A DNA stretch of 64,000 nt from Bacteroidia bacterium (GTDB taxonomy: Bacteria; Bacteroidota; Bacteroidia; M30B66), in assembly GCA_965279035.1 (NCBI GenBank), contig OZ257142.1, positions 3,712,001 to 3,776,000 of the forward strand, given 5' to 3'. Positions 1 through 17,561 of this stretch are shown here, in pieces. A program made the position numbers and the translations under genes. Below the pieces are notes generated by a model, which saw only the letters and a list, made by a program, of their open reading frames with translations, was not told the DNA's origin and ran no database searches. Within the stretch, counting starts at the first letter, position 1, and each line of letters begins with the position of its first letter.

Positions 1-936
1 AGCACAAGTTCACTCGGGACATTTATATTTACTTTCACACCAGATCAAGATCAGTGTGGAACAATAGAAACACTTCAAGTTGTTGTTACAACTCCTTTTG
101 GTGCAACTTTTTCATTTCCTACAACTTTTTGTGAGAATGATCCTTCTTTTATACTTCCTTTAATTTCTGACAATGGATTATCCGGAACTTGGGCAACTAG
201 TTCCATTAATACATCACTAATTGGTGTTACTCCTTATAAATTTATTCCCAATCCAAGTAGTTGTGGATTTGCTGTTATAGTTGATGTAACCGTAAATCCA
301 ATTTCAACTCCAACATTTTCATTTAACACAAGCATTTGTACAGGATCAAGTCCCGATGCACTTCCTTTAGTTTCTGATGAAGGAATACCGGGAACATGGT
401 TACCAGCAACTATTAACAATACAACAAGCGGCAATTATACTTTTACTCCTGATGTCGGTCAATGTGCTGCACCTGTTGATGTTTTTGTTACTGTTGGTTC
501 CGCTATTTTACCAACATTTAATGCTATCCCAGCATTCTGTTCGGGAACAATAGCACCAACTCTTCCAGCTATTTCTACCAATGGAATCACAGGAACTTGG
601 ATTCCTTCAACAATTAGTAATACTTCATCTGGCACTTATACTTTCACACCCGATGCAGGTCAGTGTGCAACAGGTGCAAGTTTAAGTGTGAGTGTTACAG
701 CATTAACAACGCCTATATTTTCAGCCATTCCAGCATTTTGTTCAGGTGCAACAGCACCATTGCTTCCAGCTACTTCTACCAATGGAATAACAGGAACTTG
801 GTTACCAGCAACGATTAATAATACAACTAGTGGGACATACACATTTACTCCGAATTCGGGACAATGTGCCTCAACAACAACCTTAACAAGCACATTAAAC
901 CCATTGCCAACAACTACACCTATTTACCACGATTAA
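1..936 (+). CDS. 5'-truncated Ig-like repeat surface protein (~67-aa Cys-pair repeats) ending in PTTTPIYHD; no T9SS CTD
   Basis: Frame 1 is open from base 1 (STSSLGTFIFTFTPDQDQCG...) to TAA at 934-936. Repeats follow PTF-x6-C...LP...NGITGTW...YTFTP-x2-GQCA. The ORF track shows only 688-936. Confidence 0.85.
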   Translation, partial: STSSLGTFIFTFTPDQDQCGTIETLQVVVTTPFGATFSFPTTFCENDPSFILPLISDNGLSGTWATSSINTSLIGVTPYKFIPNPSSCGFAVIVDVTVNPISTPTFSFNTSICTGSSPDALPLVSDEGIPGTWLPATINNTTSGNYTFTPDVGQCAAPVDVFVTVGSAILPTFNAIPAFCSGTIAPTLPAISTNGITGTWIPSTISNTSSGTYTFTPDAGQCATGASLSVSVTALTTPIFSAIPAFCSGATAPLLPATSTNGITGTWLPATINNTTSGTYTFTPNSGQCASTTTLTSTLNPLPTTTPIYHD

Positions 937-946
937 CAACCAAACT

Positions 947-3310
947 ATGAGAAAAATTCGACTCTTGTTGCTAATGATCTTCGGGCTTCTTGCCGGGCAG
1001 AAGATGATAGCACAAACCGATGCAACAGACCCTCAGGTCATATGTATCGGAGAAACCCGTCCCTATCGGGTTGACTATCTCGAAAATGCTGGAGCAGGAA
1101 CAACAGGTTCAACCTATACCTGGGCAGTTCTAACACCTGGCTTTTTGGGAACCATTGCAACCAACCAAGGTCCGGGAGCAAGCAGCAATGCTATCTCCAT
1201 AAACTGGGGCGCAACACCCGCGGGATTGTATGTCTTGCAAGTGATTGAGACCAATGGTGGTTGTCCGGGTACTCCCATGACATTGAATATTCAACTCACA
1301 CCTTTAATTACTCCAACATTCAATGCCATTGGACCATTGTGTCAGAATTCAGTGGCTCCAACATTGCCAACTAGTTCGACCAATATTCCTGCAATTACAG
1401 GAACATGGGATGCGGCTATAAATACTTCCAGTGTTGGAACTGTAGTTTATACATTTACCCCAGATCCTGGACAATGTGCTACTACCACTACATTATCTGT
1501 TACGATAACTAATCAGATTACACCAACATTTACTCAGATTGGACCATTGTGTCAGAATTCAGTAGCACCAGTATTACCAACCAGTTCGACCAATATTCCA
1601 GCCATCACTGGAACTTGGGATGCTGCAATTAGCACAGCATCGGCAGGTACTACGGTATATACTTTCACGCCAGCGAGTGGACAATGTGCAGGAACAGCCA
1701 CTATGAGTATTGATGTTAACCCGCAGGTAACACCAACATTTACTCAAATTGGGCCACTGTGTCAGAATTCGGTAGCTCCAGTATTACCAACTAGTTCGAA
1801 TAATATTCCGGCGATAACAGGAACTTGGAATGCTGCGATAAGCACAACTTCTGCAGGAACGGTTGTTTACACATTCACACCAACCGCAGGACAATGTGCT
1901 ACTACTACCACAATGAGTGTTACTGTTGATCCTCAAGTAACACCAACGTTTACTCAGCTTGGACCACTTTGCCAAAATTCAGTTGCACCTGTATTGCCAA
2001 CAAGTTCGACCAATATTCCAGCAATAACGGGAACTTGGGATGCCGTATTAAGTACTGCTTCGGCAGGAACAGTTGTGTATACTTTCACTCCAACAGCTGG
2101 ACAATGTGCCACTACACAAACAATGAGTGTAGTCGTAAACCCTCAAATAACTCCAACATTTACTCAGCTTGGACCATTGTGTCAGAATTCAGTAGCGCCA
2201 GTATTACCAACTAGTTCAACCAATATTCCAGCAATAACGGGTACATGGGATGCCGTATTAAGTACTGCATCAGCTGGAACAGTTGTCTATACATTCACTC
2301 CAACTGCTGGACAATGTGCAATAACTGCTACCATGAGTGTAACAGTTGACCCTTTGATAACACCGACTTTTGCTGCTATTGGACCATTGTGTCAGAATTC
2401 GGTTGCTCCAACATTGCCAACAAGTTCGACCAATGTTCCAGCAATTACTGGTACTTGGAATGCTGTATTAAGCACAGCATCGGCAGGTACTGTTGTTTAT
2501 ACGTTCACACCAGATCCTGGACAATGTGCAACAACTGCAACCTTGAGTGTAGACGTAAATCCTACACCTACAATTACCATCGTAGGCGGACCAACCTGTT
2601 CGGTAGATTTACTCACTTGGTCGGTTGATGTAACTGTATCGGCTGGAACATTGACTAGCACTGCAGGTACAGTAGTAAATACATTAGGAAATGCTTGGAC
2701 AATCAGTGGAATTCCAGCTGCAACAAACATTACATTAAGTTCAACTGCTTTAGGCTGTCCAGGAACCTTGGCTATTACTGCTCCGAATTGCAACTGTCCA
2801 ACCGTTGCTCAACCAGTAGGAACAGGAGCCGCATATTGTATTGGATCTTTACCAGTGCCAGCCATTACAGCAACAGTATTGGCTGGACAAACACTTAATT
2901 GGTATGATGCAGCTACTGGAGGAACACTTGTGGGAACTGGTTCTCCTTTCAACCCAAGCGGTCCAGGAACCTATTATGCTGAAGCAGTTGATAATTCTAC
3001 ATTGTGTGTGAGTCAGCGAACACCTGTTACGTTAACCGAAAATGCATTGCCTATTGTATCAGCATTCGGTGGAGCTACACTTTGTCAAGGAAGTTCAACA
3101 ACACTTTCGGCAACGGGAGCTGTAAGCTATACATGGAACCCAACTACTGGATTATCACCAATAACTGGAACACCTGTAACTGCAACTCCTCCAGTAGGAA
3201 CAACCGTTTATACTGTTACTGGAACTGATGGAAATAACTGTCAAAACACAGATACAGTTACTGTAATTGTAACTCCAACACCAACAACTTCACCTATTTA
3301 TCACGACTAA
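947..3310 (+). CDS. Secreted Ig/PKD-like repeat protein: signal peptide, N-terminal PKD-like domain, six 70-aa repeats, further Ig-like domains, C-terminal PTTSPIYHD; no T9SS CTD
   Basis: 787 aa; signal peptide followed by Gln (..MIA/QTD); six PTFxxxGPLCQNSVAPxLPTSS repeats; LNWYDAATGG Ig-like motif. Confidence 0.85.
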   Translation: MRKIRLLLLMIFGLLAGQKMIAQTDATDPQVICIGETRPYRVDYLENAGAGTTGSTYTWAVLTPGFLGTIATNQGPGASSNAISINWGATPAGLYVLQVIETNGGCPGTPMTLNIQLTPLITPTFNAIGPLCQNSVAPTLPTSSTNIPAITGTWDAAINTSSVGTVVYTFTPDPGQCATTTTLSVTITNQITPTFTQIGPLCQNSVAPVLPTSSTNIPAITGTWDAAISTASAGTTVYTFTPASGQCAGTATMSIDVNPQVTPTFTQIGPLCQNSVAPVLPTSSNNIPAITGTWNAAISTTSAGTVVYTFTPTAGQCATTTTMSVTVDPQVTPTFTQLGPLCQNSVAPVLPTSSTNIPAITGTWDAVLSTASAGTVVYTFTPTAGQCATTQTMSVVVNPQITPTFTQLGPLCQNSVAPVLPTSSTNIPAITGTWDAVLSTASAGTVVYTFTPTAGQCAITATMSVTVDPLITPTFAAIGPLCQNSVAPTLPTSSTNVPAITGTWNAVLSTASAGTVVYTFTPDPGQCATTATLSVDVNPTPTITIVGGPTCSVDLLTWSVDVTVSAGTLTSTAGTVVNTLGNAWTISGIPAATNITLSSTALGCPGTLAITAPNCNCPTVAQPVGTGAAYCIGSLPVPAITATVLAGQTLNWYDAATGGTLVGTGSPFNPSGPGTYYAEAVDNSTLCVSQRTPVTLTENALPIVSAFGGATLCQGSSTTLSATGAVSYTWNPTTGLSPITGTPVTATPPVGTTVYTVTGTDGNNCQNTDTVTVIVTPTPTTSPIYHD
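1304..2563 (+). repeat. Intragenic tandem repeat, 6 x 210 bp
   Basis: GGACCATTGTGTCAGAATTC-like anchor recurs at 1331, 1541, 1751, 1961, 2171 and 2381. Confidence 0.9.
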
Positions 3311-3327
3311 GCAGTGAATCTGTAGGA

Positions 3328-6129
3328 ATGAAACGTATTCTAACATATCTACTTCTGCTTACTGCAGGAATATTGAGCCTGACTCCTTCATGGGGTCAGG
3401 CCGATACCCTGTGCGTATCCAATCCGGTAGGCACTTATTATGTGCAAGGCTGGGCAGGAAGTACATTCAGTTGGAATACACAAGGCGATGGAGTGATACA
3501 AAGCGGTCAAGGAAATGATACTGTTGTAGTACAATGGAATACACTTTCGGGGACGTTTCAACTTGAAGTAATTGAAACCAGTTTGGAAGGCTGTGTTGGT
3601 CCTCCTCGATTGATGGATATTGTTATTCTCCCTTCATCGACAAGTACCGTAAATGCAGCAATATGTTCAAGTTCTACCTATACTCTACCTGATGGGTCGA
3701 CGGTTTCAAGCACGGGAACTTATCCTGTTACATTAACAGCAAATAATGGTTGTGATTCAATCATTACAACCCATTTAACAGTTCAATCGGTATTAACAAC
3801 TTCGGTGAATGCTTCCATTTGTTTGGGGGATGATTATGTCCTTCCAGATGGAACACATGTTAATACGAATGGCTCCTACCCAGTTACATTGAATAGTTCT
3901 GGTGGTTGCGATTCTATCATTACTACATTTTTGAGTGTAAATCAACCGATAAACACTGCCTTAAATGCAAGCACATGCTTTGGAACTGCCTATACTTTAC
4001 CAGATGGATCTCAAGTGAATTCTGCCGGAGTTTATCCAGTAACTATTCAAGGAAGTACCGGTTGTGACTCAACCATTACTACAACACTATCTATTCATCC
4101 AACGGAACAAACTGTTTTAGATATCAATATTTGTTCGGGGACATCGTATTTATTACCCGACGGACAAATCGTATCAACAACAGGCTCATATAATACAGTT
4201 TTGCAAACCACATTGGGATGCGATTCATTGGTTATAGTTAACCTCAACGTTGCTCCAACTCCAACTGTAAGTATAAGTTCTTCGGCAGGAAATTCCATCT
4301 GTCAAGGATCGTCTATCACCTTAACAGCCAGTGGAGCAAATTCATATACTTGGCTTCCAACTACAGGATTATCAGCTTCGAATGTTGCTGTTGTTGATGC
4401 AGCGCCTGATACAACTACAACCTACACCGTTGTTGGAACTTTAGGAAATTGCTCTTCGGTTGCATCGTTTATGCTAACAGTCAATGCAAGTCCAATTGTA
4501 GCGATAACACCCAATAACCCAACAATTTGCTTAGGAGATTCAGTTAGTTTAACTGCTTCTGGAGCCAATACCTATCAATGGTCTCCAGCAACTTGGTTGA
4601 GTTCTAGCACTGTGGCTTCTGTTATGGCTAGCCCTCCAGTTGGATCAACTCAATTCACAGTTATCGGTTCAAACGGAAATTGTTCTTCAACGCAAACGGT
4701 TACTGTCCTTGTTACTTCTAGCATTCAATTAAGCCTTGTTGCCCAATATCCGGTAATTTGTACTGGCTCTTCTACCTTAATAATAGCCAGTGGAGCGGCA
4801 TCGTATTCTTGGCAAAATGATCCAAGCCTTTCGACACTTTCTGGTGATAGTGTTTATGCTTCACCCGGAATACAAACAAGCTATTTTGTAACTGGCGTAT
4901 TGGGCAATTGTACTGCGATCGATTCAATCTCGATTGATGTTCAAGCTTATCCTGTTATCTCTTTAACTTCAACACCCGATTCCACTTGCGCGGGAACTCC
5001 TATTCTTCTCAGTGCACTAGGTGCTGAATCATATTCTTGGTCTCCATCGAATGGTTTATCACAAACGTTTGGAGATACTGTTATTGCTACTGTATTTGAC
5101 GATTTTACATATTATGTAAATGGAACAACAGGAAACTGCACTACGCTAGATTCCGTTTTAGTAAACATTATCCCATCTCCTCACCTTATTTTACAACCTG
5201 AATCCACTGTACTTTGTGCTGGTGATACTGTTCAACTTTCGGCAAGCGGAGCAGATGCTTATTCTTGGAATCCATCAGATAGTATTGCTTGTCCAACCTG
5301 TCCAACTATTCTGGTTTCACCTTCCTCAACCACCAATTACGAAATTATTGGTACACGAACAGGATGTGCCGATACGAGTTCCGTTTTAGTGCAAGTAATT
5401 GAACGTCCAATTCCTCTCATCACGGGTGATACTGCTATGTGTGCAAATGGTGAGATTACCTTAGAAGCATCAGGAGGTTCAAGCTATTTGTGGAGTACAG
5501 GAGATTCGATTAGTACAATAACGGTTCATCCAGAAATAACTACCGTGTATTCGGTTTTAGTAAACGAAGGTCTTTGTCCCGATTCTGCCGAACACCTCAT
5601 TGTAGTTTTTCCTGCACCTGATGTTCATGCAAGTGAAGACACTACAATACGACAAGGTGGTTCTGCGAATTTAGCTGCTGTAGGTGGCTATCAATATTAT
5701 TGGTCGCCTTCGCTATTTTTAAGTTGCGACAATTGCCCAAATCCAATTGCAAGTCCTGAAGCAACTACAACCTATTGTGTTACCGGTACAAATTTTTATG
5801 GTTGTGAAGCTTCCGATTGTGTGGAAGTGAAAGTGGAAATTATTTGTGACGATTTCTTTATTCCGAATGTGTTTTCACCAACCAAAGGAGGTGATCCTGA
5901 AAATGATTGTTTCCGATTGTATGGAACAAATTGTATTACAGAATTGAAGTTTCGGATTTTTAATCGATGGGGTGAATTAGTATTTGAAACGAACGATAAA
6001 TCCGATTGTTGGGATGGAACCTTTAAAGGTCAAGATCAAAATTCAGGTGTATTTGTATATTACCTTGAAGCCAAGTTGATTAATGATGAAAAAATTGAGA
6101 AGCAGGGTAACATCACCTTGCTCCGTTAA
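3328..6129 (+). CDS. Adhesin-like protein with T9SS type B (gliding-motility-associated, CHU_C) sorting domain
   Basis: Signal peptide; four YxLPDG...GCDS repeats; about seven ASG(A/G)xxYxW Ig-like domains; C-terminus FIPNVFSP...IFNRWGELVF...WDGTFKG...GVFVYY...GNITLLR. Confidence 0.9.
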   Translation: MKRILTYLLLLTAGILSLTPSWGQADTLCVSNPVGTYYVQGWAGSTFSWNTQGDGVIQSGQGNDTVVVQWNTLSGTFQLEVIETSLEGCVGPPRLMDIVILPSSTSTVNAAICSSSTYTLPDGSTVSSTGTYPVTLTANNGCDSIITTHLTVQSVLTTSVNASICLGDDYVLPDGTHVNTNGSYPVTLNSSGGCDSIITTFLSVNQPINTALNASTCFGTAYTLPDGSQVNSAGVYPVTIQGSTGCDSTITTTLSIHPTEQTVLDINICSGTSYLLPDGQIVSTTGSYNTVLQTTLGCDSLVIVNLNVAPTPTVSISSSAGNSICQGSSITLTASGANSYTWLPTTGLSASNVAVVDAAPDTTTTYTVVGTLGNCSSVASFMLTVNASPIVAITPNNPTICLGDSVSLTASGANTYQWSPATWLSSSTVASVMASPPVGSTQFTVIGSNGNCSSTQTVTVLVTSSIQLSLVAQYPVICTGSSTLIIASGAASYSWQNDPSLSTLSGDSVYASPGIQTSYFVTGVLGNCTAIDSISIDVQAYPVISLTSTPDSTCAGTPILLSALGAESYSWSPSNGLSQTFGDTVIATVFDDFTYYVNGTTGNCTTLDSVLVNIIPSPHLILQPESTVLCAGDTVQLSASGADAYSWNPSDSIACPTCPTILVSPSSTTNYEIIGTRTGCADTSSVLVQVIERPIPLITGDTAMCANGEITLEASGGSSYLWSTGDSISTITVHPEITTVYSVLVNEGLCPDSAEHLIVVFPAPDVHASEDTTIRQGGSANLAAVGGYQYYWSPSLFLSCDNCPNPIASPEATTTYCVTGTNFYGCEASDCVEVKVEIICDDFFIPNVFSPTKGGDPENDCFRLYGTNCITELKFRIFNRWGELVFETNDKSDCWDGTFKGQDQNSGVFVYYLEAKLINDEKIEKQGNITLLR

Positions 6130-6140
6130 AATCTGATCGT

Positions 6141-7187
6141 ATGAAGAAACTCTTTTCTACATTATGGATTATCGGATTGATTGGAATCTCCAAACTTTCG
6201 GGGCAGGATATTCACTTTTCTCAATTCACCATGGCGCCTTTAACACAAAACCCGGCTATGGCTGGAGCTTTAAATAATGCCGAAGCGTATTTGAATTATA
6301 AAAGTCAATGGAAAGCTGTAACAAATCCCTATAAAACCTATGCTGTTTCAGCAATGGCTCGTTTGGGTAAACCTAGAAAAGACAAAAGCTTTTGGGCTGT
6401 TGGTTTAAACTTTTTTAATGATCAAAGTGGAGATGGTAAATTAACTCAAACAACCGGAACGTTCACTCTTGCTTATCAAATTCATTTAACACGCTATCAC
6501 AAGCTAGGATTGGGTTTGCAAGCTGGTTTTGGACAAGTTAAAATCAATACGGGAGATTTCCAGTGGGGAAGTCAATATGTTTCGGGAAATGGATTTGATC
6601 CTTCCATGGCAACAGGTGAAAATATTCAAAATCCAACGTTCGGATATTTCGATTTTGGAAGTGGTCTTGTATGGTCGTTCAATAATACGGCAGGTTTAGT
6701 GAAGACAAGTAACAATGTGTTTAATAAAGGATGTTTTGGAATATCTGTTTATCACATCAATCAACCGAACTTTTCTTTCATCAATACAGGTGATAAACTC
6801 CACATGAAATACGTTGCTCACGGACAATATCTATTTAGTGTAAATGGTTCCAAAGTGGCGATAAATCCGGGATTCATGTTTTATAGCCAAGGAACAGCAA
6901 AGGAACTTTTCTTTGGATCCATGGTGCGATACAACATACTTCCTGAATCAAAATACTCTGGTTTTTACAAAGGTGCAGGAGCCTATTTAGGAGCTTATAT
7001 GCGTGCTGGTGATGCGATAGTTATTTCTACAATGCTGGAGCTTTCGCAGTTTGCTGTTGGCTTTAGCTACGATATTAATACATCTTCACTTCGCCCTGCC
7101 AGCAATGGACGTGGAGGATTTGAAATTTCCGTTCGCATGACCGGTCAAGGTCCTTTTGCGAATAAAGTTCGAAGCTTTAGAAGATAA
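6141..7187 (+). CDS. PorP/SprF family T9SS outer-membrane beta-barrel
   Basis: QDIHFSQF...NPAMAG...YKSQW and GFSYDINTSSL...GGFEIS motifs; sits directly after a type B CTD gene, the typical arrangement. Confidence 0.9.
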   Translation: MKKLFSTLWIIGLIGISKLSGQDIHFSQFTMAPLTQNPAMAGALNNAEAYLNYKSQWKAVTNPYKTYAVSAMARLGKPRKDKSFWAVGLNFFNDQSGDGKLTQTTGTFTLAYQIHLTRYHKLGLGLQAGFGQVKINTGDFQWGSQYVSGNGFDPSMATGENIQNPTFGYFDFGSGLVWSFNNTAGLVKTSNNVFNKGCFGISVYHINQPNFSFINTGDKLHMKYVAHGQYLFSVNGSKVAINPGFMFYSQGTAKELFFGSMVRYNILPESKYSGFYKGAGAYLGAYMRAGDAIVISTMLELSQFAVGFSYDINTSSLRPASNGRGGFEISVRMTGQGPFANKVRSFRR

Positions 7188-7225
7188 AAAAACGGACAAG
7201 CTGATTAACAACATTGTCCGTTTTT
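7186..7225. terminator. Bidirectional intrinsic terminator between porP-like gene and tRNA
   Basis: AAAAACGGACAA...TTGTCCGTTTTT inverted repeat between convergent genes. Confidence 0.65.
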
Positions 7226-7226
7226 G

Positions 7227-7299
7227 TGGGCCTGGCAGGAATCGAACCTGCGACCCGCGGATTATGAGTCCGATGCTCTAACCCCTGAGCTACAAGCCC
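7227..7299 (-). tRNA. tRNA with CAT anticodon, most likely tRNA-Ile2 (lysidine); CCA not encoded
   Basis: Reverse complement GGGCTTGTAGCTCAGGGGTTAGAGCATCGGACTCATAATCCGCGGGTCGCAGGTTCGATTCCTGCCAGGCCCA. G1-C72 pair and no GGG/CCC anticodon stem argue against initiator; overall sequence resembles Ile2. Confidence 0.9.
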
Positions 7300-7419
7300 G
7301 TTTTCAGGGAGGGCAAATATAGACTGTCAGCGCTTAATTCCAAAATCAAAGCTCTCAATAATTAAATTAATTCAAAGCCTCTGTTTTAGCCTGTTTGAAG
7401 CAAAAATGCAATTATCAAA

Positions 7420-8526
7420 TCATGGATGAAATGATTCTAAAACAGGTAATTCTTTATTACTGAAATCAAATACCGCCTGATTCTCCCAAGTAGATCCATT
7501 CGTAGCTTGCGGTCCTTGTGTCGAAACCAATTCGCCTCCCCAATACAAAAACCCAATTCCTCGGTTTGTATTTTCTATGATTTGACGAATTCGTAAAACA
7601 AATTGTTTTTGCCCTTCCGTACTAGCTGGAAAATCAGGTAAAATCAATTGATCTTCGCCTCCAACAACATTGTTTGTCCAATCGTTCCAAGTAAGCGTAA
7701 ATGGATAAGCCGTTTCGGCAACTACAATGTCTTTGTGATGTTCTTGAACGAGTGTATTTAACGTTGATTGCAAAGCATCGAGATCTTTTCCATGCCAAAT
7801 GGGATAATAAGAAAGTCCGATAATATCATAATCGACCGAATCGACTTGATTAAAAAACCATTCTGCATTCGTTAATCCAGCAAAATGAATTACAATGCGT
7901 GTTTGGTTTGAATGATCCCGAACGGCATGTGAGCAAGTTGATAATAATTCAATGAATTGATTTTGATGTGAAGAAATATCGCCGACAGGAAGCATCATTC
8001 CGGGATTTATTTCATTCCCTAGTTGAATAAAATCGGGTTGAATTTCTTCGATGATTTTAGAAGTATATTGATATACACTGTCCTTCAAATTTGAATATGA
8101 TAAACTTGACCAAACAGCTGGAATTTGTTGATGTGCAGGATCTGCCCAGGTATCGGAATAATGAACAGTCAACCACACTTTCATTCCTTTTTGATGCACC
8201 TGTTCGGAAAACAATTTCACTTCATTAAAACCAGAATGAACTGTTGAAGGATCTTTCCAAAGTCGAATGCGGATGGTATTTACGCCACGATCTTTTAGAA
8301 TCGAAAGCATATCCTTTTCCAATCCAAGAGATGAAAAAAAGACCGTATTTCCTGCCTCAATTTCGGGTAAAGAGGATATATCAATTCCTCGAATGAAGGT
8401 ATCCGGCTTTTCAATGACAATTGGATTTGAATTCTTGGATGAAATAGCTAGTTGATCTTTCGAACAAGAACCAAACAGGATGAATAAAAAATAAATAATC
8501 AGAAATCCCCTCGATTTTATCATCAA
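7420..8526 (-). CDS. GH53 endo-beta-1,4-galactanase, lipoprotein
   Basis: GIDISS, GVNTIRIRLW, HYSDTWADP, QLGNEIN, GLSYYP, AETAYP and WENQAVFDF motifs; lipobox FGSC. Confidence 0.9.
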   Translation of the reverse strand: MMIKSRGFLIIYFLFILFGSCSKDQLAISSKNSNPIVIEKPDTFIRGIDISSLPEIEAGNTVFFSSLGLEKDMLSILKDRGVNTIRIRLWKDPSTVHSGFNEVKLFSEQVHQKGMKVWLTVHYSDTWADPAHQQIPAVWSSLSYSNLKDSVYQYTSKIIEEIQPDFIQLGNEINPGMMLPVGDISSHQNQFIELLSTCSHAVRDHSNQTRIVIHFAGLTNAEWFFNQVDSVDYDIIGLSYYPIWHGKDLDALQSTLNTLVQEHHKDIVVAETAYPFTLTWNDWTNNVVGGEDQLILPDFPASTEGQKQFVLRIRQIIENTNRGIGFLYWGGELVSTQGPQATNGSTWENQAVFDFSNKELPVLESFHP

Positions 8527-13945: not shown

Positions 13946-13976
13946 TGTAAGGTTTGAGTTTTAGACTCGACCAATA
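13946..13976 (+). promoter_or_regulatory. Possible ECF-sigma-type promoter (TGTAAGG...TCGACCAATA)
   Basis: Resembles a GTAA(C/G)-spacer-CGAC ECF layout just upstream of ATG 13991; pattern match only. Confidence 0.3.
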
Positions 13977-13990
13977 CCAAAAACCAACTC

Positions 13991-14965
13991 ATGAAATCAT
14001 TTTTATTTACAATCGGATTTTCCATGTTCGCACATTTGATAGATGCTCAGGTTCCTAAAAAAGTAATTGTAGAACATTTCACCAATAGTCGATGCAGTAT
14101 TTGTGCAAACAGAAATCCCGGATTTTTCAATAACCTTATTCAGCATCCCGATGTCTTACACATTTCGATGTTTCCAAGTTCGCCTTATCCGAATTGCGCA
14201 TTTAGTCTACAAAACCCTACCGAAAATGATGGACGAACAAACTATTACAACGTATATGGCTCAACACCTGTTTTTGTCATTCAAGGTCAAGTAATTAGTC
14301 AGTCAGCTAATTATGCTTCAGCAAGTTTATTTACTCCTTTTATTGGTCAAAGTAGTCCAGTCTCGATACACGTTAATCAATTGCAAAACACCGATTCATT
14401 AATTACAGTAATTTCCATTAAAACAGAAGCTATTCATACTTTAGGAAATCTTAGTTTGTTTGCTGCTATCACCGAAGACACCGTATTTTATGCTTCGCCA
14501 AACGGAGAAACAGAACATTACAATGTACATCGAAAATCTCTTTTTGGAAATTCAGGCTTGACAATCACAATTCCCAATTCAGTAGGAGATTCTGTAGTAT
14601 TTAGAAAAGCAGTTTCAACCAATTTAATTTGGAATCAAGCACGATTAAAGAGTCTTGTTATTTTACAAGAATCGGATACAAAATCAGTAGTGCAAGCTGC
14701 CGAATCATATGGTAATGGAGAAATCCCAACAGGATTAATGAATCAATCGAATATGGATTTTCAGGTGTTCCCCAATCCCACAGAAACAATTTTAACCATT
14801 CGGATTAAAGAGGAAAATGTGCAGCATTATTTTTTATTTAATTCACTTGGACAAATTCAAAAAAGCGGATCATTAAATAAAGAAATGCAATTAAATTTTA
14901 GCAATCTACCACATGGAATTTATTTTCTTAAAATTGGAACTTCGACAAAAAAAATCATCCATTAA
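13991..14965 (+). CDS. Omp28-related thioredoxin-fold (CxxC) protein with T9SS type A CTD
   Basis: KVIVEHFTNSRCSICA, YYNVYGSTP, TEDTV...NGE...HYNVHR; C-terminal VFPNP...GIYFLK...KKII. Confidence 0.8.
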   Translation: MKSFLFTIGFSMFAHLIDAQVPKKVIVEHFTNSRCSICANRNPGFFNNLIQHPDVLHISMFPSSPYPNCAFSLQNPTENDGRTNYYNVYGSTPVFVIQGQVISQSANYASASLFTPFIGQSSPVSIHVNQLQNTDSLITVISIKTEAIHTLGNLSLFAAITEDTVFYASPNGETEHYNVHRKSLFGNSGLTITIPNSVGDSVVFRKAVSTNLIWNQARLKSLVILQESDTKSVVQAAESYGNGEIPTGLMNQSNMDFQVFPNPTETILTIRIKEENVQHYFLFNSLGQIQKSGSLNKEMQLNFSNLPHGIYFLKIGTSTKKIIH

Positions 14966-15448: not shown

Positions 15449-17338
15449 TTAGAATTTTATTGTACGAATTACTTCGTTTGTGTTAGTCGAACGAACACTA
15501 ATTAAGTACGTTCCTTTTGCTAATGTTGAAGCTGGTAGCATGTGGCGAATGTTGCTGCTGCTTGATACTTCTACATTTTCGCGGCTCATTACTTGTCCAA
15601 GTGTGTTGATTACTGATACTTCGAATGTTTCGCTTGTATTGCTTGTGCTCAAGTTAACACTGAGTGTTTCGTTGAATGGATTTGGATACACACTAATTTC
15701 ATCTACTTCGTTTGCAGTTGTTGTATTATCCTGTGTTTGAACATGAGCGATACGTGCTGCTGAAGTTGAAGAACATCCTGGTTGAGCTACAACAATTCCG
15801 TCAACATCAAAACCATCGGCTGTTCCAGGGAAATGTGCATTGCTCATAGCTGATGCGTCCGTGATGCGAACGTATTGGAACATTTCGGTACCTGATCCAT
15901 CGATGTCGATTGATTGATCTAGGCAGAAAGATTCAGAAAGCATGTACCACGTTGAGTTATCAAGCGATACTTCGATACGAGCAGTTTCTGGATAATTATC
16001 GCAAGTTGGGTTTCCGAAAGAAGTTTCAACAAGCATTAAGTCAGCACCTGGCTTGTTAAATACTACGTAACCAAGTTTCAAGCTTACTTTTCCGCCAAAT
16101 CCAAGGCTTACAAAATTTACTACATCGCTGTATTGTGGAGCTCCTACTGCATTGTCTTTATTGCTACGCGCTGCTGGAATTACACCACTGTTTTTCATAG
16201 TACCTGGGAAATAATCGTAAGCTTCTATTGCATATTCATTGCTTACTGCTGATGCAACTGGATTCGCTTCTTCGCCATTTAAACATACGATTCCGTCTAG
16301 GTCATAACCATCTGCTAAACCACCGTAAGGGAAATCGATGCGAGAGATGTCGATTAGTTTAACATATTGTGCCCAAGCTAATCCTTGCAAGTCGAAGTAC
16401 GTGTTTTGACAGCCTTCTCCTAAGAAAACCCAGTCACAGTTGTTTTGAGATGCAAAAGCGCGGATTTTTTCTGGGTAGCGATTACAGTTTTGAGCATTAT
16501 TTCCGAATGTAGTTTCAACTACATAAATATCATCTCCATCACCGTTGTGAATTGGATTTGCAAACTTCAAGGTAATTTCTCCGCCAAATCCAAGTGATAC
16601 AAAGTTGTATGATGAAGATGGTGTAGCAACATCGCTATTTTCTGGAGAACCTAATGCATTAATCAAGTTCTGACGAGAAGCTTCAATTGGAGTTAATAAA
16701 TCGTTCGTTGTTCCTGGTATATAGCTCATCACTTCAACTGCATTACATCCAGCAGGCGATGGTTGCTCAACTACTGTGGTGTCGCCACCTGTATTAGTTT
16801 GATCATCATCATCTCCATCGTCGTTCCCATCATCATTTCCGTCATCTTCTCCATCATCGTTTCCGTTATTCCCATCATCATTTCCATCATCTTCTCCATC
16901 GTCGTTTCCGTTATTCCCATCATCATTCCCATCATCGTCGCCATCGTCGTTTCCGTTATTCCCATCATCATTTCCATCATCTTCACCATCTTCGTTTCCG
17001 TTATTCCCATCATCATTTCCATCATCTTCTCCATCGTCGTTGTTATCATCATCCCCATTTTCATTACCCGTTGTACAAGCACCTATATAATCACCATGAT
17101 TTAAATGTGCTTGAAGTGCATTGACACTAACAGTTATCGTGTGAGAACCACCATTTCCAGTTTGGTGACAAATGGTAATGTGTTGATTGTTGCCATTTCC
17201 TTGATTTTTTACAGAACCCTGAACTGTAGTATTTTTATTTACTCCAGCAGATTGATTTTGGATTTGTTCTGTTTGTGCATTCAGTCCGCCTATAGTCAGA
17301 ATCAGAATTGCTAAGAGTTGAGAAATACGTGTCATCAT
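15449..17338 (-). CDS. T9SS type A cargo: His/Cys mini-domain, Asp/Asn/Gly tandem repeat, duplicated FVSLGFGG domain
   Basis: Signal peptide; ICHQTG...AHLNHGDYIGAC; (DDGNDDGNNGNDDGE)n; two NAxGxP...FVSLGFGG...YPE...DG(Y/F)D(L/V)DGI domains; VYPNPF...GTYLISV CTD. Confidence 0.8.
   Translation of the reverse strand: MMTRISQLLAILILTIGGLNAQTEQIQNQSAGVNKNTTVQGSVKNQGNGNNQHITICHQTGNGGSHTITVSVNALQAHLNHGDYIGACTTGNENGDDDNNDDGEDDGNDDGNNGNEDGEDDGNDDGNNGNDDGDDDGNDDGNNGNDDGEDDGNDDGNNGNDDGEDDGNDDGNDDGDDDDQTNTGGDTTVVEQPSPAGCNAVEVMSYIPGTTNDLLTPIEASRQNLINALGSPENSDVATPSSSYNFVSLGFGGEITLKFANPIHNGDGDDIYVVETTFGNNAQNCNRYPEKIRAFASQNNCDWVFLGEGCQNTYFDLQGLAWAQYVKLIDISRIDFPYGGLADGYDLDGIVCLNGEEANPVASAVSNEYAIEAYDYFPGTMKNSGVIPAARSNKDNAVGAPQYSDVVNFVSLGFGGKVSLKLGYVVFNKPGADLMLVETSFGNPTCDNYPETARIEVSLDNSTWYMLSESFCLDQSIDIDGSGTEMFQYVRITDASAMSNAHFPGTADGFDVDGIVVAQPGCSSTSAARIAHVQTQDNTTTANEVDEISVYPNPFNETLSVNLSTSNTSETFEVSVINTLGQVMSRENVEVSSSSNIRHMLPASTLAKGTYLISVRSTNTNEVIRTIKF
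16802..17062 (-). repeat. Low-complexity 45-bp tandem repeat (about 4 units plus degenerate ends) encoding D/N/G/E
   Basis: GTTTCCGTTATTCCCATCATCATT recurs every 45 bp on the plus strand. Confidence 0.85.
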
Positions 17339-17561
17339 AAGGATAAGGTTAGGTTGTTTGCTATCCTTTACCGAATTCCGACAAAAAGTGTTTCATTCTT
17401 ACAAATAAAAAATACAAGCTTCCGAGCGAAATAAGTTTTATCTATTTGATTATATGGTATTTAAATAAATATCAAAATTCAACTTTATCCTCATAACGAG
17501 GTAATTCTTACACATGTAATACTAGAAATTAGCTCTCTATTCGATAATAAATGAATGGATT

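What the first reader, a model, noticed from the sequence alone, without database searches (positions are those of the whole stretch)
1..7187. Candidate undescribed T9SS-anchored filament built by head-to-tail strand complementation
Seen: a tight operon with gaps of 10, 17 and 11 bp. It encodes protein A (..PTTTPIYHD*), protein B (..PTTSPIYHD*), protein C (type B CTD) and a PorP/SprF barrel. A and B are Ig-repeat proteins with no T9SS CTD. B and C begin with a homologous PKD-like domain. Internal domain junctions read V-x-P-x-P-x-V-S-I...C (e.g. LNVAPTPTVSISSSAGNSICQG in C). The A/B tails look like the first half of that junction (VTPTPTTSPIYHD), and the mature N-termini of B and C look like the second half (QTDATDPQVIC, QADTLC). 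Established: type B CTD cargo depends on a cognate PorP/SprF protein, and donor-strand complementation builds chaperone-usher and type V pili. Inference: each tail is a donor strand completing the N-terminal domain of the next subunit. C would be the secreted base, B (acceptor plus donor) a self-polymerising shaft, and A a further or tip subunit, perhaps exported piggyback. I know of no description of this, but cannot verify novelty.
Basis: partly seen in the sequence, partly recalled or inferred. Interest (0 to 1): 0.85.

Follow-up and report, generated by a model that had tools for sequence, protein, structure and literature searches.

The report
Split-domain T9SS surface adhesin operon
A conserved four-gene operon in some Flavobacteriales seems to build one long surface fibre from three separate proteins, each joined to the next by lending it the missing first strand of a small domain, so that two proteins without an export signal could ride out on the third.

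Summary
The window holds A (1-936, 5' cut, ends TTPIYHD), B (947-3310, ends TSPIYHD), C (3328-6129, type B CTD) and D (6141-7187, PorP/SprF), with gaps of 10, 17 and 11 nt.

The tail is conserved: 43 of 119 listed database relatives of B end in I-[FY]-H-[DN], and none of these has a CTD. In 29 loci, all 47 genes that start with the B/C N-terminal PKD-like domain lie directly behind a tail-bearing gene.

The N-domain is homologous to internal tandem PKD-like repeats of giant proteins. In 713 such internal junctions, the stretch before the conserved Cys reads V-T-V-N-P-x-P-T-[PS]-x-I-[TS]-G. The tail matches this stretch in register and stops where the mature N-domain begins. The gene boundary therefore lies inside a domain, after its first strand.

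A complex prediction (C N-domain with B's last domain plus tail) scored 0.70 against a best control of 0.16. The tail lies antiparallel to strand 35-42 and Ile784 is buried.

Best reading, from computation only: a modular A-B-C adhesin joined by trans strand complementation, exported through C's CTD and held by D. B polymerisation and piggyback export were not tested. I found no description in eight literature searches.

The parts
1..936 (+). A, 3' part only (311 aa in the window): CTD-less donor-only subunit. The near-identical relative in L131/L132 is 2394 aa with a signal peptide and an N-terminal CUB-like head.
901..933 (+). Tail of A: P-L-P-T-T-T-P-I-Y-H-D, followed by stop 934-936
947..3310 (+). 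B (787 aa): signal peptide, acceptor N-domain, Ig-like repeats, donor tail; no CTD
1013..1303 (+). B N-terminal PKD-like domain (aa 23-119), starting at the predicted mature Gln23
1328..2559 (+). 5.8 tandem copies of a 210-bp (70-aa) repeat inside B
3032..3307 (+). B last Ig-like domain plus tail (aa 696-787); this was the partner chain of the complex prediction
3275..3307 (+). Tail of B: P-T-P-T-T-S-P-I-Y-H-D (aa 777-787). Residues 776-787 form the predicted interface.
3328..6129 (+). C (933 aa): signal peptide, acceptor N-domain, Ig-like repeats, type B CTD
3397..3636 (+). C N-terminal PKD-like domain (aa 24-103). The mature end Q-A-D-T-L-C lies only 5 residues before the conserved Cys29.
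5860..6126 (+). Type B T9SS C-terminal domain of C (aa 845-933)
6141..7187 (+). D (348 aa): PorP/SprF-family outer-membrane protein

Best explanation
The operon encodes a modular surface adhesin made of three Sec-exported polypeptides that join end to end without covalent bonds. The join is a split PKD-like domain. The last 7-10 residues of the distal subunit (..P-x-P-x-T-[ST]-P-I-[FY]-H-[DN]-COOH) supply the first beta-strand. That strand is missing from the N-terminal domain of the next subunit, whose N-terminus is created by signal-peptidase cleavage (Q-A-D-T-L-C in C; Q-T-D-A-T-D-P-Q-V-I-C in B). The chain is colinear with the gene order. A is the tip, with adhesin-like heads and a donor only. 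B is the connector or stalk, with acceptor and donor. C is the base, with an acceptor and a type B CTD. C is exported by the T9SS and held at the surface by its cognate PorP/SprF protein D. A and B have no CTD and most likely leave the cell attached to C, as a train of folded Ig-like beads. Shown here: the gene order, the conservation, the homology of the tail to strand A, and a predicted interface that passes controls. Inferred: binding in the cell, the order of assembly, the route of export, the stoichiometry and the adhesin function.
For: (1) Conservation. 43 of 119 listed relatives of B end in I[FY]H[DN] and none carries PF13585 or PF18962. I784 and H786 are invariant, and P777, F/Y785 and D787 are at least 90% conserved, in 43 sequences of 38-86% identity.

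(2) Synteny. In 29 loci (the window, 3 from genomes, 16 from metagenomes, 9 from genomes; several are near-duplicates), all 47 genes with the N-domain are directly preceded on the same strand by a tail gene. 43 of 47 were found by the nearest ORF of at least 100 aa. The other four are masked by short out-of-frame ORFs and are resolved. L162's partial upstream ORF is seen. The stop lies 63-94 nt before the mature Gln codon in 43 pairs. In all 11 loci where C's end is in view, C ends in CHU_C and a PorP gene follows.

(3) The N-domain occurs once per protein, right after the signal peptide, only in B- and C-type proteins and never in A-type proteins.

(4) Homology. phmmer with the C N-domain finds 1229 proteins, mostly internal tandem repeats. 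In 713 unique internal junctions from 140 proteins, the residues before the conserved Cys are V-T-V-N-P-x-P-T-[PS]-x-I(74%)-[TS]-G(86%)-x-x-x-V-C. The tail aligns with Ile at -7 and ends at -4; mature C starts at -5. A PSSM built from those junctions scores 61 tails at a mean of 9.7 bits, against 10.2 for the internal junctions and -10.6 for 261 other C-termini. PKD_6 aligns from its position 13 to residue 4 of mature C.

(5) Complex prediction. C 24-108 with B 696-787 scored 0.70, 0.70 and 0.71, with a best of 3 controls of 0.16. The mark was reached by 116 of 157 solved complexes and 2 of 215 mismatched pairs (these counts hold only roughly, because my own alignments were used). The runs agree in at least 96% of contacts and the partner's pLDDT is at least 90. 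The interface is B 713-714 and 776-787 with C 24, 26, 35-42, 45, 79, 81-85, 87-92 and 94-96. The register is antiparallel (37 with 786 through 41 with 782), and I784 touches 37-39, 79, 81 and 94-96.

(6) 11 of 26 interface residues are at least 90% conserved across B and C N-domains, against 7 of 59 others (Fisher p=0.0026).

(7) No solved homologue of the N-domain exists (best E 0.12 and 0.33), so the pass is unlikely to come from memory of a like complex.

(8) In the full-length B model, residues 784-786 are a strand.

(9) A-type proteins have signal peptides and CUB, GBD-like, P-domain or CBM heads.

(10) The SprA translocon is present in 3 of 3 related genomes searched. The T9SS carries folded and very large cargo (PMC9251779, passages read). 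Type B cargo binds PorP-like proteins (PMC9143113 and PMC12618676, passages read).
Against: All the evidence is computational, with no expression, localisation or binding data.

Donors outnumber acceptors. L135, L140, L144 and L166 have two A-type tail genes. One genome has an orphan tail protein that lies away from any CHU_C or PorP gene. A strict 1:1:1 chain therefore cannot be the whole story.

B's N-domain keeps a polar segment (Q-T-D-A-T-D-P) at the place of strand A, and A tail with B N-domain was not folded.

The conserved [FY]-H-[DN] end has no counterpart in internal junctions and is not explained by simple strand mimicry.

Tail D/N does not covary cleanly with residue 25 of C.

Conserved interface residues are partly core strand residues that would be conserved in any case.

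The tail set used for the PSSM test was chosen with a pattern that fixes a hydrophobic residue at -7, which inflates the core score.

No T9SS hitchhiking has been described.
Confidence: 0.62

Rival explanations
1. It is a true polymeric filament. The B tail also binds the B N-domain, so B forms a homopolymeric shaft of variable length, capped by A-type tips and terminated or anchored by C. This would parallel tip, shaft and anchor in pili.
For: B carries both an acceptor and a donor. A and B tails are nearly identical, and the predicted binding residues are conserved between B and C N-domains, so cross-binding is plausible. Extra donors (two A genes, orphans) fit a fibre with many ends or alternative caps. 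In the B monomer model the tail is a strand.
Against: B is large (481-857 aa) and varies in repeat number, unlike typical pilins. B and C N-domains are only about 30% identical, and B has a conserved insertion (E-N-x-G-A-G-T) and a longer N-terminal segment. This suggests two distinct sockets. Gene order is colinear with a single A-B-C chain in every locus.
Confidence: 0.2
2. The tail is a short sorting or recognition tag read by another partner rather than by the N-domain. Candidates are the PorP/SprF protein D, a T9SS component, or a periplasmic PDZ-type protease or chaperone that binds free C-termini.
For: The invariant [FY]-H-[DN]-COOH end has no counterpart in internal junctions. An orphan tail protein is encoded away from any acceptor. 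Donors outnumber acceptors.
Against: The tail is homologous, in register, to strand A of the very domain family that starts the next gene. 47 of 47 N-domain genes follow a tail gene. The complex prediction passes its controls. The tail is rare: in 301 genomes of the order, none of the 30 pattern matches fetched as loci was the end of a long ORF, and the real ones were confined to genomes with the operon. This argues against a general secretion signal.
Confidence: 0.1
3. The tail is a relic of gene fission or a cis-acting cap. It folds back on its own last domain or has no assembly role, and A and B act independently of C, for example in the periplasm.
For: Fission of a giant repeat protein would leave exactly such a junction remnant. 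The isolated last-domain model gave no information either way.
Against: The remnant is invariant over 38-86% identity while neighbouring residues vary. It acquired a conserved H-[DN] end. The partner genes acquired signal peptides and kept tight spacing. A relic would decay. Huge Ig-repeat proteins with adhesin heads are not expected to work in the periplasm.
Confidence: 0.06

Closest known systems
Type V pili of Bacteroidia (FimA/Mfa1)
   Same: Found in the same phylum. C-terminal donor strands of one subunit fill a groove opened at the N-terminus of the neighbouring subunit. There are tip, shaft and anchor subunits, encoded in one cluster (PMC8512630, passages read).
   Different: Type V pilins are lipoproteins whose groove is opened by Arg-gingipain removal of a proregion, and they have the fimbrillin fold. 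Here the subunits have ordinary signal peptides without a lipobox Cys, the acceptor is a small PKD-like domain exposed by signal-peptidase cleavage, the bodies are Ig-repeat strings, and the base is a T9SS type B CTD cargo with a PorP/SprF partner.
Chaperone-usher pili (donor-strand complementation and exchange)
   Same: An incomplete Ig-like fold is completed in trans by a strand from the next subunit.
   Different: In chaperone-usher pili the missing strand is the C-terminal G strand, and it is given by an N-terminal extension (recalled, not from a call). Here the missing strand is the N-terminal A strand, given by a C-terminal tail. There is no chaperone or usher gene in or beside the operon.
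SprB-SprF and the sprC-sprD-sprB-sprF operon of Flavobacterium johnsoniae; PG1035-PorP-PorE of Porphyromonas gingivalis
   Same: A type B CTD adhesin is encoded next to its PorP/SprF partner, to which it stays bound at the surface (PMC9143113 and PMC12618676, passages read). Accessory genes lie upstream of the adhesin gene (title of Rhodes 2011 seen in reference lists; that paper is not held). One relative here (L162) is a 5097-aa protein with a SprB repeat, the acceptor N-domain, CHU_C and PorP.
   Different: No tail or split-domain link between SprC or SprD and SprB is described in what I could read, and I could not inspect their sequences. Here the upstream proteins carry a specific tail matched to the adhesin's N-terminal domain.
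Mfa5, a T9SS cargo built into Mfa1 fimbriae
   Same: A precedent for a CTD-bearing T9SS cargo becoming part of a multi-subunit surface fibre (PMC8512630, passages read).
   Different: Mfa5 is the accessory tip of a type V pilus. Here the CTD protein is the base, and the CTD-less proteins are the added parts.
GhpA grappling hook of Aureispira (PDB 9flp)
   Same: It is the closest solved sequence relative of B's last Ig-like domain (E 9.5e-4) and is a giant Ig-repeat surface protein of Bacteroidota.
   Different: It is a single giant polypeptide, and the match gives no hint of a split domain. Only the entry title was seen.

Membership tests
T9SS type B CTD cargo (protein C) | C-terminal CHU_C / TIGR04131 domain above the curated cut-off | tested here: met
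   PF13585 59.9 bits (cut-off 27); TIGR04131 43.4 bits (cut-off 35)
T9SS type B CTD cargo (protein C) | N-terminal Sec signal peptide and an adjacent cognate PorP/SprF gene | tested here: met
   The signal peptide is read from the sequence. D follows 11 nt downstream. The same holds in 11 of 11 loci where C's end is in view.
T9SS type B CTD cargo (protein C) | Secretion depends on the T9SS and the PorP-like partner | not testable with these tools
   Needs genetics. SprA is present in 3 of 3 related genomes.
PorP/SprF family (protein D) | Match to TIGR03519 / PF11751 above the cut-off over the full length | tested here: met
   193.8 bits (cut-off 90.55), residues 1-332; PF11751 146.5 bits
T9SS cargo (proteins A and B) | A type A or type B C-terminal sorting domain | tested here: not met
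   No CTD family hit for A or B in Pfam or NCBIfam, nor for full-length A relatives. The 43 tail-bearing homologues carry no PF13585 or PF18962.
Type V pilus | Fimbrillin-fold subunits made as lipoproteins, with a protease-removed N-terminal proregion | tested here: not met
   No fimbrillin family hit. The signal peptides end in A-Q or G-Q with no lipobox Cys.
Type V pilus | A C-terminal donor strand fills a groove at the N-terminal side of the neighbouring subunit | tested here: inconclusive
   Predicted for B tail with C N-domain (0.70 against a best control of 0.16). This is a model, not a structure.
Chaperone-usher pilus | Periplasmic chaperone and outer-membrane usher genes in the cluster | tested here: not met
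   The four operon genes and six neighbours have no such families.
PKD-like domain (Pfam PKD_5 / PKD_6) for the N-domain | Match above the gathering score | tested here: not met
   18.5 and 21.2 bits (cut-off 25). Homology to internal PKD-like tandem repeats is nevertheless clear by phmmer (362 proteins at E<=1e-10).

The most novel reading that the evidence does not exclude
A plug-and-socket system. A PKD-like domain split at its first strand lets interchangeable CTD-less adhesin heads, including ones encoded elsewhere in the genome, click onto a stalk whose base alone carries the T9SS signal. The whole non-covalent train then passes the SprA translocon together. This would be the first hitchhiking route through the T9SS, and a third, independently evolved class of surface fibre assembled by strand complementation, after chaperone-usher and type V pili.
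Probability: 0.35. Interest if true: 0.85.

Novelty: new variant of a known kind. Interest (0 to 1): 0.72.

Why it matters
T9SS export is thought to require a CTD on every cargo. Here two large proteins without a CTD appear to be tied by a tiny, sequence-defined tail to a CTD-bearing partner. If true, this has four consequences:

- It shows how Bacteroidota can put CTD-less proteins on their surface.
- It explains a class of unexplained 'hypothetical' Ig-repeat genes that lie upstream of type B CTD/PorP pairs.
- It gives a minimal 7-10 residue tag and an 80-residue socket that could be used for surface display.
- It adds a new evolutionary route to multi-subunit fibres, by fission of a giant adhesin inside a domain.

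The claim can be tested directly with peptides and small domains.

Tried and rejected
- **Whole genome of the window:** not held. Genome-wide counts were made only in relatives.
- **Order-wide scan for the tail codons in 301 genomes:** matches were about as frequent as the reversed-pattern control (controls not tallied exactly). Of the 30 matches given as loci, none was the end of an ORF of 100 aa or more, and 9 were ends of 40-79 aa ORFs. Of the other 25 matches, 6 lie in G001-G003, and I inspected only those. The scan is useless as a census but shows that the tail is not a widespread signal.
- **My first N-domain HMM:** it was cut from a gappy alignment and hit generic Ig repeats. It was replaced by two specific HMMs.
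- **AlphaFold model of B's last domain plus tail alone (7-row alignment):** mean pLDDT 48.7 with the tail unstructured. The model is too poor to say whether the tail needs a partner.
- **Full-length B model:** the tail is a strand, but no coordinates were available, so I could not see what it pairs with.
- **Covariation between the last tail residue (D or N) and residue 25 of C:** Ala25 occurs only with HD, but Thr25 occurs with both. Not clean, and confounded by descent.
- **Scan of 777 ORFs in 77 generic Bacteroidota Ig-protein loci for other junction-like C-termini:** only the known tail proteins and spurious antisense ORFs scored. No second split family was seen in this sample.
- **Sequencing runs:** no RNA holder listed.
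- **Search for C N-domain relatives of similar length:** only 4 hits. The exhaustive search was needed.
- **Rhodes 2011 (sprCDBF):** not held.
- **Promoter and terminator scan 6000-7600:** nothing above the shuffled expectation.

Full report
**1. What is in the window**

Four ORFs lie on the + strand with gaps of 10, 17 and 11 nt:

| Gene | Coordinates | Notes |
|---|---|---|
| A | 1-936 | cut by the window start |
| B | 947-3310 | 787 aa |
| C | 3328-6129 | 933 aa |
| D | 6141-7187 | 348 aa |

- A ends ..NPLPTTTPIYHD and B ends ..TPTPTTSPIYHD. The two tails differ at synonymous sites, so selection acts on the peptide.
- C has a type B T9SS sorting domain and D is a PorP/SprF protein, both above curated cut-offs.
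- A and B have Ig-like domains (Ig_7, K319L-like PKD) but no CTD.
- B, C and D start with plain signal peptides.
- B also holds 5.8 tandem copies of a 70-aa unit.
- The next gene is a convergent GH53 galactanase, and the further neighbours are unrelated.
- No whole genome is held for the window.

**2. The tail is a conserved family feature**

- A search with B's C-terminal 228 residues listed 119 database proteins. 43 of them end in I-[FY]-H-[DN], and none of those carries CHU_C or Por_Secre_tail.
- In an alignment of 43 B homologues (38-86% identity to B), C33, Y40, V42, D43, E101 and C106 of the N-domain are invariant, as are P779, T781, I784 and H786 of the tail. F/Y785 and D787 are at least 90% conserved.

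**3. The operon is conserved**

- Genome contigs gave three Flavobacteriales MAG loci. Metagenome contigs gave 16 relevant loci and one unrelated. A family-level genome search found the B-type N-domain in 13 of 201 genomes, and nine more regions were fetched.
- With two specific HMMs, the N-domain is found once per protein, directly behind the signal peptide, and only in B- and C-type proteins.
- In 29 loci (several are near-duplicates), all 47 N-domain genes are directly preceded by a tail gene.
  - 43 of 47 were found by the nearest upstream ORF of at least 100 aa.
  - In the other four a short out-of-frame ORF ends closer, and the long upstream gene does carry the tail.
  - L162's partial upstream ORF is seen.
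- Tail variants include TTLIFHN, TSPVFHD, TSPLYHD, TGGIFHD, TGLIFHE, TTKVFHE and TSGISHN.
- In all 11 loci where C's end is in view, C ends in CHU_C and a PorP gene follows.
- Full-length A proteins (870-3127 aa) have signal peptides and CUB, galactose-binding-like, P-domain or CBM heads, with no N-domain.
- Some operons have two A-type genes (L135, L140, L144, L166). One genome has an orphan tail protein elsewhere.
- One relative (L162) pairs a tail gene with a 5097-aa SprB-repeat protein that has the N-domain, CHU_C and PorP.
- The tail is not a general signal. In 301 genomes of the order, the codon pattern was about as frequent as its control, and none of the 30 matches fetched as loci was the end of a long ORF.

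**4. The gene boundary lies inside a domain**

- The N-domain gives sub-threshold matches to PKD_5 and PKD_6. For C, the match starts at profile position 13, at residue 4 of the mature protein.
- An exhaustive phmmer search with C's N-domain found 1229 proteins. Most hold many internal tandem copies at 30-40% identity. The few hits at 50-66% identity are single N-terminal copies.
- In 713 unique internal junctions from 140 of these proteins, the residues before the conserved Cys (position 0) read: V(-17) T V N P(-13) x P(-11) T(-10) P/S(-9) x I(-7, 74%) T/S G(-5, 86%) x D/T S/T V(-1) C.
- The tail ..V-T-V-N-P-x-P-x-T-S-P-I-[FY]-H-D fits this in register, with its invariant Ile at -7, and ends at -4. 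Mature C (Q-A-D-T-L-C) begins at -5.
- A PSSM built from the internal junctions gives these mean scores:

| Set | n | Mean score (bits) |
|---|---|---|
| Non-redundant tails | 61 | 9.7 |
| Internal junctions themselves | 713 | 10.2 |
| Other C-termini | 261 | -10.6 (maximum 6.3) |

- The four-residue core alone also separates the sets. That test is partly circular, because the tail set was chosen by a pattern that fixes position -7.
- A profile comparison of the B N-domain with B's last Ig domain places B's polar Q-T-D-A-T segment where that domain has its first strand (probability 54%).
- The tail is therefore the first strand of a PKD-like domain whose remainder is encoded, behind a signal peptide, by the next gene.

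**5. Structure predictions**

- Complex prediction: C 24-108 (28-row alignment) with B 696-787 (42 rows) scored 0.70, 0.70 and 0.71, with a best of three controls of 0.16.
  - The mark was reached by 116 of 157 solved complexes and 2 of 215 mismatched pairs. These counts hold only roughly, because my own alignments were used.
  - The runs agree in at least 96% of contacts, and the partner's pLDDT is at least 90.
- The interface is B 713-714 and 776-787 with C 24, 26, 35-42, 45, 79, 81-85, 87-92 and 94-96.
  - The best pairs run antiparallel (C37 with B786, down to C41 with B782).
  - I784 touches C37-39, 79, 81 and 94-96. This is an edge strand beside strand 35-42 with its Ile in the core, as expected for strand A of an Ig-like fold.
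- 11 of 26 interface residues are at least 90% conserved across B and C N-domains, against 7 of 59 others (p=0.0026). Part of this reflects core strands that would be conserved anyway.
- No solved structure resembles the N-domain by sequence. The last domain weakly matches GhpA of Aureispira.
- The full-length B model (mean pLDDT 81.4, pTM 0.38) has residues 784-786 as a strand, but I could not see its partner.
- The isolated last domain folded too poorly to serve as a control.

**6. Mechanism**

The best-supported reading is a modular adhesin. A is the tip, B the connector and C the base, joined by trans completion of a split PKD-like domain. The chain is colinear with the gene order and resembles one giant adhesin cut into pieces.

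- C's CTD targets the T9SS, and D holds C at the surface. This is established for type B cargo and PorP-like proteins (PMC9143113 and PMC12618676, passages read).
- The T9SS moves folded and very large proteins (PMC9251779, passages read), and SprA is present in 3 of 3 related genomes.
- Inferred, not shown: A and B join C in the periplasm and are exported as a train. Also unresolved: whether B polymerises, and what the conserved [FY]-H-[DN] end does.
- Extra A-type genes and the orphan suggest interchangeable heads.

**7. Comparison with known systems, and novelty**

- It works most like type V pili, where C-terminal donor strands fill an N-terminal groove (PMC8512630, passages read). It is not a member of that family: there is no lipoprotein signal, no protease-opened proregion and no fimbrillin fold.
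- It is not a chaperone-usher system.
- It shares the cargo/PorP pairing, and upstream accessory genes, with sprC-sprD-sprB-sprF.
- Eight full-text searches found no description of a tail or split-domain link, or of T9SS hitchhiking:
  - type B CTD/PorP/T9SS
  - type IX + strand complementation
  - SprB/C/D/F
  - T9SS + strand augmentation
  - co-secretion terms
  - T9SS + piggyback
  - T9SS + donor strand
  - CTD-less terms
- The library lacks most subscription journals, and no supplements were read.
- I rate it a new variant of a known kind (fibre assembly by strand complementation) in a new setting (the T9SS).

Noticed in passing
window 1328-2559: 5.8 tandem copies of a 210-bp unit (77% matches) encode the 70-aa 'TPTF..GPLCQNSVAP..ITGTW..YTFTP..GQCA' repeats of B. 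Repeat number differs among homologues (B-type proteins range from 481 to 857 aa).
   Followed up: partly
window 7420-8526 (-): A GH53 endo-galactanase gene is convergent with the operon. A 368-aa gene on the opposite strand lies at the same place after D in the near relatives L130-L132 (identity not checked). A functional link to the adhesin, such as plant or algal galactan binding, was not examined.
   Followed up: no
window 13958-14965 (+) and 15449-17392 (-): Two proteins with type A T9SS sorting domains (Por_Secre_tail, 1.2e-11 and 1.2e-10).
   Followed up: no
L095 10328-11809 (genome G002): An orphan 493-aa secreted protein ends in ..ENPPIITPIFHD. It is not next to any N-domain, CHU_C or PorP gene and may be an alternative head for the stalk encoded elsewhere in that genome.
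   Followed up: partly
L162 460-15753: A 5097-aa protein with the acceptor N-domain, a SprB repeat and CHU_C, preceded by a tail gene and followed by PorP. This hints that SprB-like gliding adhesins in some lineages may take add-on subunits.
   Followed up: partly
L159 6046-9418 (-): The C homologue is broken into at least four ORFs inside its near-identical repeats. This is probably assembly or sequencing error in a repeat array rather than decay.
   Followed up: no
L163 1-921, L142 1-840, L166 1285-2253: Tail variants ..TSGISHN, ..TGLIFHE and ..TTKVFHE. The aromatic residue and the last residue are not absolutely fixed, while His is kept in every copy seen.
   Followed up: partly
L141, L142, L144: In one lineage the gap between the tail gene and the B-type gene is about 336-356 nt, instead of 10-14 nt.
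   Followed up: no
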